Shown here one piece after another: positions 10,601 to 31,189 of a stretch of DNA of 64,000 bases. Source of the stretch: the human T2T-CHM13v2.0 reference genome, Homo sapiens; assembly GCF_009914755.1 (NCBI RefSeq), contig NC_060943.1. One strand, written 5' to 3'. The notes under the pieces are model-generated. The model made no database searches and had not been told where the DNA came from. It saw only the letters and a program-made list of their open reading frames with translations. Positions within the stretch are counted from its first letter, which is position 1, and each line of letters opens with the position of its first letter. The translations under genes were made by a program, and so were the position numbers.

Positions 10601-11205
10601 AATCACCAGCTGAGGTAACCAGGTGAAAGGTACACAAGATCTCTCAATTTTATTTCTTGTAACTACATATGAATCTAAAGTCTATCTAATTAAAAGAGAA
10701 AAAGATTTTCAGAAAAAAAGCATTTTGTGAACATACTTCAACATTGTGTACAACTATAGCTACTTCCTTGGCATAAATACCAAAAAGTGGGATTTTGAGT
10801 CAAAATGAGACTGTGGTTAAGTACCTGCAACATCCTGTAGACCCTGTGACGTTAGTACTTGGAATGAGAGCGGGACTCACGGGGCATAACTGCTACCTGT
10901 ACATTGTTTACAATGCAGCAAGCAAGGGACACCGAATAGCAGCTCCGGCAGCCTGTGCTAGCGGCCTGCAGAGAATTCCAGGTGACGCTCCAGAGGGGCT
11001 AGGAGAGGATACCCTTCTGAGGACAGCCATGGCTCGCCCGGCATCACCCCACTCAAGAGGCCAGACGGGGTCCCAGCTGGGGTGACACAGCTCCTTTCCC
11101 AGTCGGGAAGGGGCGTCTGCAGGGACCAGGAAGGGCTTAGCTTGGGGCTGCCCGCTCCGGCACCGACCTGGGACGCGCCCTGAGGCCCCTGCCTGGGACC
11201 GTCCC

Positions 11206-11222
11206 GGACTACATTTCCCAGA
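11206..11222 (+). promoter_or_regulatory. ZNF143/THAP11-HCFC1 ACTACA-SBS motif
   Basis: GGACTACATTTCCCAGA, with an inverted SBS-like TGCATGCTGGAA about 25 bp downstream. Confidence 0.75.
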
Positions 11223-11399
11223 GACCATCCAGGAGTACGCCGTGCTGCATGCTGGAACACGGGGCTTGGGGCTCTGGTTTCCCCCGACGGCCCCGCGTCC
11301 TCTTCTAGCCTCACCCTCTCCCGAGGCCCCAGCGTTGGGGGACTACCGGGTGCGTCTGCGGCTTTGGGAGAGTGGGAGGAGGGAAAGGGATGGGAGGGG

Positions 11400-11660
11400 T
11401 GCACGCACACGTGTCAGTGTGTCCGCGTGTCAGCATCTGTGCAGGCGCACGTGTGTGTCGGGCTCTGTTGTGTCTGCACATGCGTGTCGGCATCTGTGCG
11501 TGCGCACACGCCCGTCAGGGTCTGTGTGCCCGCACAGGCACGTCAACAGCTGAGCACGCTATGTATCGGGGGTCTGTGTACGCTCACATACGTGTCGGGG
11601 TCTGGGTACGTGCACATACGTGTAGGGGTCTGTGTGCACATGCGTGTCGGGCTCTGCTGC
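11400..11660. repeat. Degenerate ~26-30-bp tandem repeat (GTGTCGGGGTCTGTGTGCRCACATGC-like); paralogue at ~27845-28040
   Basis: Recurrent GTGTCGGG(G/C)TCTG separated by alternating purine-pyrimidine runs. Confidence 0.75.
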
Positions 11661-11690
11661 TGTCTGCGCGCTGCGGCCGCTGGGTGCGCG

Positions 11691-11702
11691 TGCGCATGCG
11701 CG
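11691..11702. promoter_or_regulatory. NRF1 site
   Basis: TGCGCATGCGCG matches the NRF1 palindrome. Confidence 0.7.
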
Positions 11703-12268
11703 CTGGCCTCCAGGGGGTGGCGGGACCGAGTGTGTGACGCACTTGCGTGGGAGTACGAGGCTGACGCGGCGGCCCTGTCCCCGTAACTGTGACACGGGTG
11801 CACGCGAGCGTCATTGGGGGCGATGGGGGCCGTGCTGGGTGCGCGTTTGCACCAGTGACGCAGCCGCTGCATCTCCGCCAGTCCGCGCAGGTGAGATTGG
11901 TGCGCGTGGCTCCGAGGGGAGACGGGCACGGGGCTTCTGACGGTGACGCACTTGCTGGAGAGTGTGGGGTGACACAGCCGGGCTCTCCCCATAACTGGTG
12001 ACCGGGGGTGCTCCAGAGGCTTTGGGTCAACGCAGCCCGTGCCTGTGAACCTCGGCGGTGCGTCCCTGGGACTCTGCTCCGTGAGGTGCGCTCTGGGGGT
12101 TGTGCGGGGGCAGCGGTCGGGACGGGTCTCCGTGGCCCACGGATGCACCTCTGCACCGTGTGGGGTGGTGGGGCCCGTAGCATGGCCGTGCTGGGCGTTA
12201 GTGGGTATGAGGGGCGCAGATGTGTCTCAGGACAGAGTGAGCTGTGGTGAGGCTGAGCTGTGCAGACT

Positions 12269-12420
12269 TGTGCTGGGATGGGTGATCGGGCCTTCTGGGT
12301 GACGCAGGTGTGTGTGACAACACAACCTGTAGCTTCAGCGTCTCTGTGCTGGGATGGATGATCGGGCCTTCTGAGTGATGCAGGTGTGTGTGACAGTGCA
12401 ACTTGTAGCTCCAGCGTCTC
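12269..12420. repeat. 76-bp tandem repeat, 2 copies, in the U2 island
   Basis: Same unit, with anchors at 12293 and 12369. Confidence 0.92.
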
Positions 12421-27605: not shown

Positions 27606-28094
27606 CCCCCCAGGAACTTAAGGCGCTGCATGCTGGGACACGGGGCTTGGGGCTCTGGTTTCCCCAGACATCGCCCTCCTCAAGCCTCTCACCCCTTCCC
27701 GAAGCCCCTGTGTGTTTGGGCCTGAGTAGGGCATTCGCTTCCTAGGAGGAACCCAGGGGTGCGCGCCAAGCATGGGGGTAGGGGGACCGCCGAGTGCGCC
27801 TGTGGCTTCGGGAGAGGCCAAAGAAGGAAGGAGTGGGAAGGGCGCGCACGCGTGTCAGTGTATGCATGTGTCAGCGTCTGTGCACGCGCACATGTGTGTC
27901 GGGGTCTGGTCGCACATGCGGATCAAGGTCTGGCCACACGCATGCGTTGGGGGTCTGTGTGCGCGTACACGTGCATGTCGCGGTCTGGGTGTATATGCGT
28001 GTCAGGATCTGTGTGCACGCACATGCGTGTCGGGCTCTGCTGCTGCCTGCGCGCTCCGGCCGCTGGGTGCGGGAGGCCCCTCCCGAGTCCGGGG

Positions 28095-28106
28095 TGCGCA
28101 TGCGCG
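28095..28106. promoter_or_regulatory. NRF1 site, paralogous copy
   Basis: TGCGCATGCGCG. Confidence 0.7.
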
Positions 28107-28676
28107 CTGGCCTCCATGGGTGGCGGGACCGACTGTGTGACGCACTTGCGTGGGAGTGCGAGGCTGACGCGGCGGCTCTATCTCCCGTAACTGTGACACG
28201 GGTGCACGCAAGCGTCATTGGGGGTGATGGGGGCCGTGCTCGGTGCGCTTCTGCACCGGTGACGCAACCGCTGTGTCTCCGCCAGTCCGCGCAGGTGAGA
28301 TTGGCGCCCATGGCTCCAAGGGGAGACGGGCACGGAGCTTCTAGCGGTGACGCACTTGCTGGAGAGGGTGTGGGGTGACGCAGCCGGGCTCTCCCCATAA
28401 CTAGGGCTGGGGTGCTCCCGAGGCTTTGGGGCGACGGAACCCGCACCTGTGAACCTCGGCAGTGCGTCCCCGGGACTCTGTTCTGTGAGGTGCGCTCTGG
28501 GGGATATGTGGGGGCGGCGATCAGGACGGGTCTCCGTGGCCCACGGATGTGCCTTTGCACTGTGTGGAGTGGCGGGGCCGGCAGCGTGGCCGTGCTGGGC
28601 GTTAGTGGGTATGAGGGGCGCAGATGTGTCTCAGGCCAGTGTGTGCTGTGGTGAGGCTGAGCCGTCAGTGCAGGCT

Positions 28677-29056
28677 TGTGCTGGGATGGTTGGTCGGGCC
28701 TTCTGGGTGACGCAGGTGTGTGTGACAGCACAACCTGTAGCTCCAGCGTCTCTGTGCTGAGATGGGTGATCGGGCCTTCTGGGTGACGCAGGTGTGTGTG
28801 ACAACACAACCTGTAGCTCCAGCTTCTGTGTGCTGGGATGGGTGATCGGGCCTTCTGGGTGACGCAGGTGTGTGTGACAGCACAACCTGTAGTTCCAGCG
28901 TCTCTGTGCTGAGATGGGTGATCGGGCCTTCTGGGTGACGCAGGTGTGTGTGACAACACAACCTGTAGCTCCAGCTTCTCTGTGCTGGGATGGATGATCG
29001 GGCCTTCTGGGTGACGCAGGTGTGTGTGACAGCACAACCTGTAGCTCCAGCGTCTC
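28677..29056. repeat. 76-bp tandem repeat, 5 copies, in the U4 island
   Basis: TTCTGGGTGACGCAGG recurs at 28701, 28777, 28853, 28929, 29005. Confidence 0.95.
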
Positions 29057-29445
29057 TGCTGCTTCCCCTGCCTTCACCTCCTAACCAAGCGGTACCTGCC
29101 TGAGAACAAGGGCCGCGGAAGGACGGGAGTGCCTGAGCCCTGCCAGGAAATTCACCAACAAGAAGGCAGAAACAGCCATGAGGTGACGCTTTCAGAGCTA
29201 GAAGTGCTCTCCACTCAGGGCGCCTGAGTGACAGGAGACGGTGGCCTCAGGAGTAGAATTCCTCCTGTAGAGGGACAGGTCCCTGATGTGGGAGACAGGG
29301 AGAGGGGCAGCTCCACGCTTCATCATCTCAGTTACCACAGCGTGCTCTTCAGGAATCTCCCAGAAACTCCATCTCGGGGCCTCGTATTTCTCATTGGTTT
29401 TATTAGGTATGGCAGGTGTTACCCTTCTGGTTCTGTTTTCCCCAG

Positions 29446-29509
29446 GCCAGCATCCTTCAGAAAAAGCATCCCCGAGGAGGAAGACGAATCGTTAAACATC
29501 TTAGGTCAG
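29446..29509 (+). other. ZNF331: Non-coding 5'UTR exon (64 nt), U4 copy
   Basis: TTCTGTTTTCCCCAG|GCCAGC...TTAGGTCAG|GTGAGT; identical to the U2 exon except near the 3' end. Confidence 0.8.
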
Positions 29510-31189
29510 GTGAGTATCTTTTTTTTTTTTTTAATTAAATCATATGTGTTTATGAGACTTAGTCGGCGGGCGCAGTGGCTCACGCCTGTAATCCCAGCAC
29601 TTTGGGAGGCCGAGGTGGGCAAATCACAAGGTCTGGAGATCGAGACCATCCTGGCTAACACGGTGAAACCCCGTCTCTACTAAAAATACAAAAATTAGCC
29701 GGGAGTGGTGGCGGGCGCCTGTAGTCCCAGCTACTCGGGAGGCTGAGGCAGGAGAATGGCGGGAACCCGGGAGGCGGAGCTTGCAGTGAGCCGAGATCGC
29801 ACCGCTTCACTCCAGCCTGGGCAACACAGCGAGACTCCATCTCAAAAAAAAAAAAAAAAAAAGGAAATCCCATTGAATTAGACGTTTTGTAAATATCCTA
29901 TCCAAGATGACGACTGATTATTCAGTGAAGGAAGAGAGGAGCCTGGTCACATTTATTAAGCACATATTCTCTGTACTAAACTGTCTCTTGTCTATTTTGC
30001 ACACACCTCTTAATTCTTGTCTTAGTTGATTCAGTCTGTGATAACAAAGTACCATAGACTGTGTGACTAAAAGGGCAAACTTTTTTTTTTTAATTTTTTT
30101 TTTTTTTAGAGACAGGGTCTCACTATGTTACCCAGGCTGGTCTTGATCTCATGAGCTCAAGCTTTCCTCCCACCTTGGCCTCAAAAAGTGCTTGGATTAC
30201 AGATGTGAGCCACCATGTTGGGCCTTTTTTATTGTTTTTGTTTTGTTTTGTTTTTGAGACAGGGTCTTACTCTGTCATCAAGGCTGGAGTGCGGTGGTGT
30301 GATCATAGCTCACTGCAACCTCAGCCCCCTGGGCTCAAGCAATCTTCCCACCCCAGCCTCCCAAGTAGCTGGGGCTACTGGTGTGTGCCACCACATGTGG
30401 CTGTATATTTTTATTTTTATTTTGAGACGGGGTCTCGCTTTGTCATCCAGGTTGGAGTGCAGTGGCACGATCTTGGCTCACTTCAACCTCTGCTTTCTGG
30501 GCTCAAGCAATCCTCCCACCTCAGCCTTCTGAGTAGCTGGGACTACAGGTGTGAGCCACCACACCTGGCTCTTTTTTTTTTTTTTTTTTTTTGGTAGATA
30601 CAATGTTTCACCATGTTGCCCAGGCTGGTCGTGAACTCCTGAGCTCAAGCAATCTGCTGCCTGCCTCGGCCTCCCAAAGTGCTGGGATTACAGGCGTGAG
30701 GCGCCACACCCAGCCAATTTTTTAATATTTTATAGAGACAGGGTCTTGCCATGTTGCCCAGGCTGGTATCAAACTCCTGAGCTCAAGCAATCCTCCCATT
30801 TCCACCTCCCAAAGTGCTGGGGTTACAGGCATCACCCACCGTGTCCGGCCACAGCAAGCATTTATTTCTTACAGTTCTGGGGGCTGGAAGCCTGAGACCA
30901 GGGTGCCAGTGCAAGCAGCTTCCGGTGAGGCCTTCTTCAAGGTTGCAGGCGACCACCCTCGTGCCATGGCCACACATGGTGAAAGGGAGCTGAGAGCTCT
31001 CTGGGATCGTTTTTATAAGACACTAATCCTATTCCTGAGCACTCCTCCCTCATGTCCTAATCACCTTCCAAAGGCCTCACGTCTTAATACCATCACATTG
31101 GGGAACAGAATTTCAATATAGGAATCTGGGGAGGAATAAAATACTTAGTTTTGTCAGGTATCTTCAGAGGCTATTTAGGTACAGTATTG

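What the first reader, a model, noticed from the sequence alone, without database searches (positions are those of the whole stretch)
10793..29550. Concerted evolution of the two island promoters inside much more diverged flanks
Seen: 12340-12900 vs 28980-29550 and 10793-11091 vs 27184-27485 are near-identical (roughly 90-95% by eye). The AT-rich flanks of the same cassettes look only about 75-80% alike and carry different insertions. Methylated CpG-rich DNA should diverge faster, not slower. Inference: repeated non-allelic gene conversion, possibly GC-biased, homogenises the two DMRs and restores CpGs. The same homology predicts ~16.5-kb NAHR deletions or duplications, and cross-mapping of short bisulfite reads or array probes between the two DMRs.
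Basis: partly seen in the sequence, partly recalled or inferred. Interest (0 to 1): 0.75.

Follow-up and report, generated by a model that had tools for sequence, protein, structure and literature searches.

The report
Gene conversion between ZNF331 imprinted promoters
The two imprinted start regions of the human ZNF331 gene are copies within an old tandem repeat and are 91% alike over 2.2 kb while their surroundings are only about 74-78% alike, most likely because DNA was copied between them (gene conversion) millions of years ago; a GC bias and a present-day deletion hotspot are not supported.

Summary
Observation confirmed and enlarged. The two blocks (96.0% and 94.6% identical) are the ends of one 2.15-kb tract, 10772-12925 vs 27163-29560 (187 differences in 2061 columns), inside an ancient tandem array of six ZNF331 promoter units (U0-U5) whose upstream flanks differ by 25-29%. 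Using the other units as outgroups, selection alone is rejected: U2/U4 share derived bases and indels, and a third, unannotated unit (U3, 18906-19156) carries a sharply bounded 251-bp patch 93-94% identical to them (split seen at 24 of 227 sites vs 8 of 863 in flanks; simulation expects 2-5 of 163, observed 18). At least two conversion events are likely; ages vary along the tract. With about 5% paralogue divergence, ape trees would group orthologues anyway; monkeys are the test. A known process at a locus where I found no description of it.

The parts
10772..12925 (+). U2 copy of the homogenised tract (ZNF331 alt-TSS-DMR1 promoter, first exons, 76-bp VNTR, exon 12810-12876)
   Evidence: 187 differences in 2061 columns to U4; exons from the hub's annotation
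27163..29560 (+). U4 copy of the tract (alt-TSS-DMR2 promoter, VNTR, exon 29446-29509), 16,381-16,636 bases downstream
18906..19156 (+). Patch in the island-less unit U3 that matches U2/U4, with sharp ends; inferred conversion tract
   Evidence: 237 of 251 identical to U2, 233 of 250 to U4, 154 of 234 to U1, 151 of 248 to U5; the 280 bases before it are 157-179 of about 245 to all four
12699..12865 (+). Most similar sub-tract (167 bases, 1 mismatch; holds the 93-bp perfect match); partner 29335-29501; youngest exchange or splice-site constraint
11125..11632 (+). Least similar part of the tract (85.0% and 79.6%; TG/CG-rich simple repeats, many gaps); partner about 27518-28011
10850..12550 (.). 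Approximate place of ZNF331:alt-TSS-DMR1 (oocyte germline DMR); inferred from published length, spacing and CpG count, not by lift-over
   Evidence: 69 start positions 10803-10871 fit within one CpG
27430..28770 (.). Approximate place of ZNF331:alt-TSS-DMR2 (oocyte germline DMR), same inference
12269..12427 (+). 76-bp VNTR, 2.1 copies in U2
28677..29063 (+). 76-bp VNTR, 5.1 copies in U4
29561..29865 (+). Alu without target-site duplication at the right end of the tract; U4 lacks the equivalent of U2 12926-13612, so the true right boundary is lost
1146..8984 (+). Unit U1 (old paralogue, no CpG island; outgroup)
8985..15346 (+). Unit U2
15631..24847 (+). Unit U3 (island core missing)
24848..35038 (+). 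Unit U4
35039..40990 (+). Unit U5 (5' part only; outgroup). A sixth, 3'-part-only unit U0 lies before the window at about -4934..-19 (locus L006)

Best explanation
The two imprinted ZNF331 promoters are units 2 and 4 of an old tandem array and are 91% identical over 2.15 kb, likely because interlocus gene conversion overwrote that stretch at least twice long after the array formed. Shown: six paralogous units; upstream flanks all 25-29% apart with no resolvable branching; U2 and U4 share derived bases and indels across the tract; U3 shares them over 251 bp with sharp ends. Inferred: double-strand-break repair with the paralogue 8-16 kb away as template copied tracts of hundreds of bases to about 2 kb; the last exchanges in the two shores are younger than most local Alus (4-5.5% non-CpG divergence vs a 12.2% median between Alu pairs), roughly 10-25 million years on a recalled Alu clock, and 12699-12865 may be younger still. 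Selection on two working promoters probably helped by keeping them similar enough to keep exchanging, while island-less units drifted away. Direction of transfer is unknown. Today the copies are likely below the similarity needed for efficient exchange.
For: Flank: ten pairwise distances 0.25-0.29, each 2|3 split 5-13 of 863 columns, internal branch for U1+U5 vs U2+U4 -0.003 [-0.026, 0.023]. In 27239-27484 the split U1=U5 vs U2=U3=U4 holds at 24 of 227 columns, internal branch 0.157 [0.08, 0.254], and U2 is as far from U1 and U5 (0.339, 0.385) as these are from each other (0.371), so it was not held near the ancestor. A selection-only star simulation expects 1.7-4.7 such non-CpG sites; 18 of 163 seen, 0 of 5000 replicates in each of six settings. 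Sawyer-type fragment test: U2-U4, U2-U3 and U3-U4 at global P=0.0003, the other 7 of 10 pairs not significant, 0 of 10 pairs in flank alone. Boundaries are staggered (U2/U4 from 10772-10782, U3 from 18906-18908). At 12690-12925 U2=U4 differ from U0=U1=U3 at 23 of 209 columns (singletons 16-19 for the outgroups, 1 and 4 for U2, U4) and share two deletions. U3's patch has no exon or element in the hub's annotation. Only these copies were found in the genome. Non-CpG differences are unevenly spread along the tract (150-column windows 0 to 24, P=0.002-0.005).
Against: No primate orthologues or population data could be examined. In the downstream flank U2 and U4 really are closer to each other than to U1 (U1 singletons 64 vs 24 and 27 of 305 columns), so part of the shared state at 12690-12925 is plain descent; the excess there is only P about 0.03 (0.48 vs 0.33) and the star simulation for that block overstates it. 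The clean test rests on about 250 bases. The simulation has no CpG-context or indel model, block borders were set after seeing the data, and 70%-identity alignments are uncertain. Rate heterogeneity could be selection or slippage: without 11125-11632 it weakens (150-column minimum P=0.014, variance P=0.036; 100-column windows not significant), and the 93-bp run alone is not unusual within block C (P=0.16). The middle of the tract (11125-12268) had no usable outgroup except 109 columns at the first exon.
Confidence: 0.85

Rival explanations
1. Purifying selection alone keeps two (three) promoter copies near the ancestral sequence while flanks and dead units drift.
For: Both copies are active imprinted promoters with RefSeq exons and enhancers; 29 of 33 CpGs are kept at the first exon; U2 and U4 are true sisters in the downstream flank.
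Against: No slow-down against outgroup units; 18 shared derived non-CpG sites vs at most 4.7 expected; shared indels; the unannotated U3 switches allegiance over 251 bp and back; the most similar parts are intronic, CpG-poor shores rather than the island core.
Confidence: 0.05
2. One single replacement of the whole 2.15-kb stretch (plus one spill-over into U3), followed by uneven selection and mutation; no continuing concerted evolution.
For: The tract is continuous; U2, U3 and U4 are about equidistant in the shared patch (0.049-0.065), as one episode would give; heterogeneity is driven largely by the slippage-prone 11125-11632.
Against: Non-CpG divergence runs from 0 of 151 to 27 of 173; a 150-column window with no difference remains unusual without the repeat-rich part (P=0.014); U2's first VNTR unit is closer to U4's units (3-4 differences) than to its neighbour (8). 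This is a variant of the best explanation, not an alternative to conversion; its confidence is a share of it.
Confidence: 0.3
3. GC-biased conversion builds or restores the CpG islands.
For: Shared U2/U4 lineage: W>S 26 of 187 vs 130 of 1713 in flanks (P=0.005); block C 25:15 vs 39:51 in outgroups (P=0.057); conversion events favour CpG-rich regions (PMC3966225, passage).
Against: Block A 12:9 vs 22:21 (P=0.79); pooled P=0.064; outgroups in block A show the same raised W>S rate; CpG sites still differ at 22% vs 6.8%; promoter hypomethylation in sperm and selection at maternal ICRs explain CpG retention (PMC2987832); polarising with decayed paralogues inflates W>S.
Confidence: 0.2
4. The two copies are a live NAHR substrate giving recurrent 16.4-16.6-kb deletions or duplications that fuse the two DMRs.
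For: Direct orientation, 16.4 kb apart, about 2 kb of homology; one 167-base stretch with one mismatch.
Against: Longest perfect match 93 bp, overall 91%; cited needs are about 200 bp (PMC3924818) or 337-456 bp and about 92% (PMC3966225); neighbouring same-strand Alu pairs reach 69 bp (best of 244 pairs). The ZNF331 rearrangements I read (445-kb and 109-kb gains, a complex inversion) are not of this size.
Confidence: 0.1

Closest known systems
SIGLEC11/SIGLEC16 paired genes (PMC5701461; abstract and passages read)
   Same: About 2-kb converted region including upstream sequence inside a less similar duplicated block on chr19; repeated in primate lineages; may carry regulatory state along.
   Different: There 97-99% identity and conversions up to about 1 Mya between two genes, over coding exons; here 91-95%, non-coding, between alternative promoters of one gene, with much older (about 74%) flanks and imprinted DMRs as substrate.
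ZNF331:alt-TSS-DMR1 and -DMR2 (PMC3975056, PMC11295890, PMC12628973, PMC6589892; passages)
   Same: The two islands are these known oocyte germline DMRs (hg38 starts 16,576 apart) with isoform-specific, mostly paternal expression.
   Different: The passages read treat them as two separate DMRs; none mentions that they are paralogues, the six-unit array, or conversion.
Interlocus gene conversion between tandem duplicates in general (PMC3924818, PMC3966225; passages)
   Same: Short-distance direct repeats, GC/CpG-rich tract, patchy identity with sharp ends.
   Different: Present identity and perfect-match length lie at or below the cited working range, so this looks like a largely historical case.
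H19/IGF2 ICR1 repeat blocks and their microdeletions (recalled, not read)
   Same: Repeated sequence in an imprinting control region that can recombine.
   Different: ICR1 is paternal, intergenic and CTCF-based with repeats inside one DMR; here two whole maternal promoter DMRs are paralogues and no recurrent deletion is shown.

Membership tests
Interlocus gene conversion / concerted evolution | Local high identity with abrupt ends inside older homology | tested here: met
   56 of 244 vs 15 of 342 across 10782; U3 patch ends
Interlocus gene conversion / concerted evolution | Paralogues share derived states; tree of tract differs from tree of flank | tested here: met
   24 of 227 vs 8 of 863; simulation; trees; internal branches; weaker at the 3' end because of true U2/U4 sisterhood
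Interlocus gene conversion / concerted evolution | More than one event | tested here: met
   Three units involved, staggered left ends
Interlocus gene conversion / concerted evolution | Events of different ages along the U2/U4 tract | tested here: inconclusive
   Heterogeneity P=0.002-0.005, weaker without 11125-11632; selection not separable
Interlocus gene conversion / concerted evolution | Paralogues cluster within species across primates | not testable with these tools
   No primate genomes held; G000 has no relatives
Interlocus gene conversion / concerted evolution | Shared polymorphisms between copies (ongoing conversion) | not testable with these tools
   No population data
GC-biased gene conversion | Excess of weak-to-strong fixations in the converted lineage | tested here: inconclusive
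   37:24 vs 61:72, P=0.064
NAHR-prone low-copy repeat | Direct orientation at short distance | tested here: met
   Same strand, 16,381-16,636 apart
NAHR-prone low-copy repeat | Uninterrupted identity of at least about 200-450 bp and overall identity above about 92-95% | tested here: not met
   93 bp; 90.9%; thresholds
NAHR-prone low-copy repeat | Recurrent CNV with breakpoints in the repeats | not testable with these tools
   No SV catalogue; three papers read show other rearrangements
Selection-only conserved paralogous promoter | Conserved copies lie closer to outgroup paralogues than these lie to each other | tested here: not met
   0.264 observed vs 0.17-0.19 expected, P 0.0002-0.004
Maternal germline DMR | Oocyte-derived, maternal-allele methylation | not testable with these tools
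   Taken from tables in PMC11295890 and PMC12628973; window places inferred

The most novel reading that the evidence does not exclude
ZNF331 has two germline imprints because gene conversion pasted an imprinting-competent promoter over a decaying paralogue: an imprinting control region propagated by copy-and-paste within a promoter array, with U3's patch as a failed third paste. Lineages without the exchange would have only one ZNF331 DMR.
Probability: 0.2. Interest if true: 0.72.

Novelty: new member of a known kind. Interest (0 to 1): 0.46.

Why it matters
It shows that two separately catalogued human imprinted DMRs are paralogues with a shared recent history, offers a testable route by which an imprinted promoter can be duplicated or refreshed, and gives a natural comparison of units that kept (U2, U4) or lost (U1, U3, U5) the island. 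Practically, bisulfite primers, 50-mer probes and short reads in parts of the tract (above all 12699-12865 / 29335-29501 and the VNTR) can be ambiguous, so agreement between DMR1 and DMR2 assays is not fully independent. The process itself is well known, and disease-causing NAHR is not supported.

Tried and rejected
Uniform identity across core and flank: rejected. Recent tandem duplication of U2/U4: rejected, flanks 26% apart and Alus unit-specific. A dispersed mobile element as source of the similarity: rejected, the tract is collinear with old paralogues and the genome searches returned only the array copies (5 matches; 6 matches in 5 places; that search skips very common words). A shared ancestral Alu at 10223 / 26835 as sign of an older conversion: rejected, target-site duplications differ in length and carry unit-specific bases. 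The selection-only simulation for block C (35 of 193 sites) was set aside as overstated once the downstream flank showed real U2/U4 sisterhood. U1 could not be aligned over 12397-12660; U0 was used instead. The repeat finder returned mainly Alus. AU tests on the flank did not resolve the duplication order (10 of 15 trees kept). Supplements were not opened; DMR tables or primate methylation data there may bear on the novelty claim.
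Full report
OBSERVATION. The Alu-free upstream flank differs at 253 of 1148 columns pairwise or 284 of 1079 in a five-way alignment. The pairs are the two ends of one tract, 10772-12925 vs 27163-29560, with 187 differences in 2061 columns. Block identities: 10772-11124 94.9%; 11125-11330 85.0%; 11331-11632 79.6%; 11633-11900 93.6%; 11901-12268 88.5%; VNTR 94.8%; 12423-12699 92.8%; 12700-12864 99.4%; 12865-12925 91.4%. The left edge is a step at about 10782 (56 of 244 vs 15 of 342). 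The right edge is hidden: an Alu without target-site duplication at 29561-29865 stands where U2 has 12926-13612. The most similar blocks have CpG o/e 0.44 (0.70 at 12700-12864); the island core has 0.94-1.03.

ANATOMY. Self-comparison with Alus masked shows five units in the window; a genome search with 10772-11094 returned 5 matches, all here, and one with 11633-12925 returned a further 68% copy 4.3-4.6 kb before the window, which proved to be the 3' part of a sixth unit, U0. Only U2 and U4 carry the large CpG islands in the window. The hub's annotation places ZNF331 alternative first exons in both. Published tables list ZNF331:alt-TSS-DMR1 and -DMR2 as oocyte germline DMRs with hg38 starts 16,576 apart (PMC11295890, passages; PMC12628973, passages). 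Expression is isoform-specific and mostly paternal (PMC6589892, passages; PMC3975056, passages).

CONVERSION OR SELECTION. No primate genomes were available, so the other units served as outgroups. In the upstream flank all ten pairwise distances are 0.25-0.29 and each 2|3 split has 5-13 of 863 columns; the tree is a star (internal branch -0.003 [-0.026, 0.023]). In 27163-27238 U2 and U4 differ at 3 of 73 while U3 stays with U1 and U5 (22-23 of 71 from U2/U4). In 27239-27484 U3 joins: U2, U3, U4 are 0.049-0.065 apart, and U1=U5 differ from U2=U3=U4 at 24 of 227 columns, with shared small indels. If selection had frozen them near the ancestor they would lie about half as far from U1 and U5 as these from each other; they lie as far (0.339 and 0.385 vs 0.371). 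A star simulation (K80, kappa 4 or 8, three rate-variation settings, non-CpG columns, well-aligned part) expects 1.7-4.7 split sites and a distance of 0.17-0.19; observed 18 of 163 and 0.264; no replicate of 5000 reached 18 in any setting. U3's patch, 18906-19156, is 237 of 251 identical to U2 and 233 of 250 to U4, against 160 of 242 and 157 of 243 just upstream; it has no annotated exon or element. A Sawyer-type fragment test over 582 polymorphic columns flags U2-U4, U2-U3 and U3-U4 (global P=0.0003), none of the other seven pairs, and none of ten in the flank alone. At the 3' end U2=U4 differ from U0=U1=U3 at 23 of 209 columns and share two deletions.

Against this: in the downstream flank U2 and U4 are truly closer to each other than to U1 (U1 singletons 64, U2 24, U4 27 of 305) and share structure that U0, U1 and U3 lack, as a two-unit duplication step would leave. 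So the 3' shared states are partly descent; the excess is 0.48 [0.36-0.62] vs 0.33 [0.25-0.43], P about 0.03, and I discount the block-C simulation. The clean evidence is about 250-320 bases at the 5' end; the middle has almost no outgroup (6 of 109 columns at the first exon).

HOW OFTEN AND WHEN. Three units and staggered left ends need at least two events. Non-CpG differences (120 of 1755) are clumped: 150-column windows run from 0 (at 12696, P=0.0024) to 24 (P=0.0048); without the slippage-prone 11125-11632 the signal weakens (minimum P=0.014, variance P=0.036; 100-column windows not significant). The 93-bp perfect run alone is not unusual within block C (P=0.16). Among 48 near-full-length Alus of the window, pairwise non-CpG distance has a median of 12.2% and a 5th percentile of 8.3%; the shores differ by 4.0-5.5%. 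So the last exchange there postdates most Alu insertion; on a recalled Alu clock that is roughly 10-25 million years, an inference that assumes near-neutrality (U3's patch, 5%, supports it). Great apes, 1-3% apart by recall, would therefore group by orthologue even if conversion is right.

Premise: maternal ICRs lose CpGs at the pace of non-imprinted CpG-rich promoters and gain them slightly faster (PMC2987832, abstract and section 9), so fast decay was not expected. CpG restoration: CpG-site columns differ at 67 of 306 (22%) vs 6.8% elsewhere; 87 CpGs are shared of 126 and 114, and 42 are CG vs TG/CA. GC bias: W>S:S>W in the shared lineage 12:9 (block A) and 25:15 (block C) vs 22:21 and 39:51 in outgroups; P=0.79, 0.057, pooled 0.064; the W>S rate exceeds the flank's (P=0.005) but so does that of the outgroups in block A. 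Open, with confounders. NAHR: longest perfect match 93 bp, 167 with one mismatch; cited needs are about 200 bp (PMC3924818, passages) or 337-456 bp with about 92% identity (PMC3966225, passages); the best of 244 same-strand Alu pairs nearby has 69 bp. ZNF331 rearrangements in three papers are of other sizes (passages). Cross-mapping: of U2-tract words, 127 of 2105 50-mers are identical in U4 and 637 within three mismatches; after full C-to-T conversion 205 of 2105 50-mers, 68 of 2055 100-mers and 18 of 2005 150-mers; after G-to-A 198, 0 and 0. Real but local. One array study notes atypical ZNF331 DMR CpG values without linking them to paralogy (PMC12288321, passages).

MECHANISM. Shown: the array, the tract, shared derived states, the U3 patch. 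Inferred: break repair from the neighbouring paralogue, with selection on two working promoters keeping them exchangeable; donor unknown; now mostly historical. Confidence 0.85 for conversion; about a third of that goes to a single main episode.

KNOWN AND NEW. It works like SIGLEC11/SIGLEC16 (2-kb converted region with upstream sequence; PMC5701461, abstract and passages) and meets the within-genome criteria of interlocus conversion; the cross-species criterion could not be tested. It fails the length and identity test for an NAHR-prone repeat. Searches for a prior description found none: ZNF331 + gene conversion (5 papers listed; the one with conversion in its title names ZNF331 only in a table beside ZNF761/765/813, passage), ZNF331 + duplicat + promoter + paralog (8), ZNF331 + segmental duplication (14 of 15 listed), ZNF331 + macaque + imprint + conserved (3 of 4 listed; PMC9255983 passages), imprinted + DMR + gene conversion + paralogous + tandem duplication (0), a general promoter-conversion search (20 of 37 listed). 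Most of these were seen as listings only; subscription papers, supplements and genome-browser self-chain tracks were not covered and may show the paralogy.

VERDICT. New member of a known kind; interest 0.46.

Noticed in passing
window 2718-3010, 10223-10516, 26835-26911: Alus sit at the same paralogous site in three units, each with its own target-site duplication of different length and unit-specific bases; the first looks AluY-like and the second AluSp/Sq-like (subfamily names recalled): three independent insertions at one target.
   Followed up: partly
window 29561-29865: Alu with no target-site duplication in place of about 690 bases that U2 has (12926-13612): insertion- or recombination-mediated deletion.
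   Followed up: partly
L006 about 3500-9981 (window -6500..-19): Sixth unit U0 with homologues of the first and second exons and a CpG-rich stretch at -6500..-4500; candidate for the upstream ZNF331 promoter whose transcription could run through both DMRs in oocytes (inference).
   Followed up: partly
window 10772-12925 and 27163-29560: No match to the ZFP57 hexamer (motif recalled) on either strand in either copy; a 7-base GTGACGC word occurs 6 and 10 times, 0 in U1 and 1 in U3.
   Followed up: no
window 4833-7380 and 19921-24130 vs 13613-13951 and 29866-30979: U0, U1 and U3 share one downstream region, U2 and U4 another, and U3 and U5 share an upstream insertion: fits a 15-16-kb two-unit duplication step in the array's history.
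   Followed up: partly
window 12810-12876 and 29446-29509: The selected transcript NM_001079906.2 splices both paralogous copies of the non-coding second exon in tandem (hub annotation).
   Followed up: no
window 32381-33995: 1.6-kb degenerate (CA/TA)n array inside unit U4.
   Followed up: no
window 3858-3988: 43-bp tandem repeat, 3.0 copies at 98%, in unit U1.
   Followed up: no
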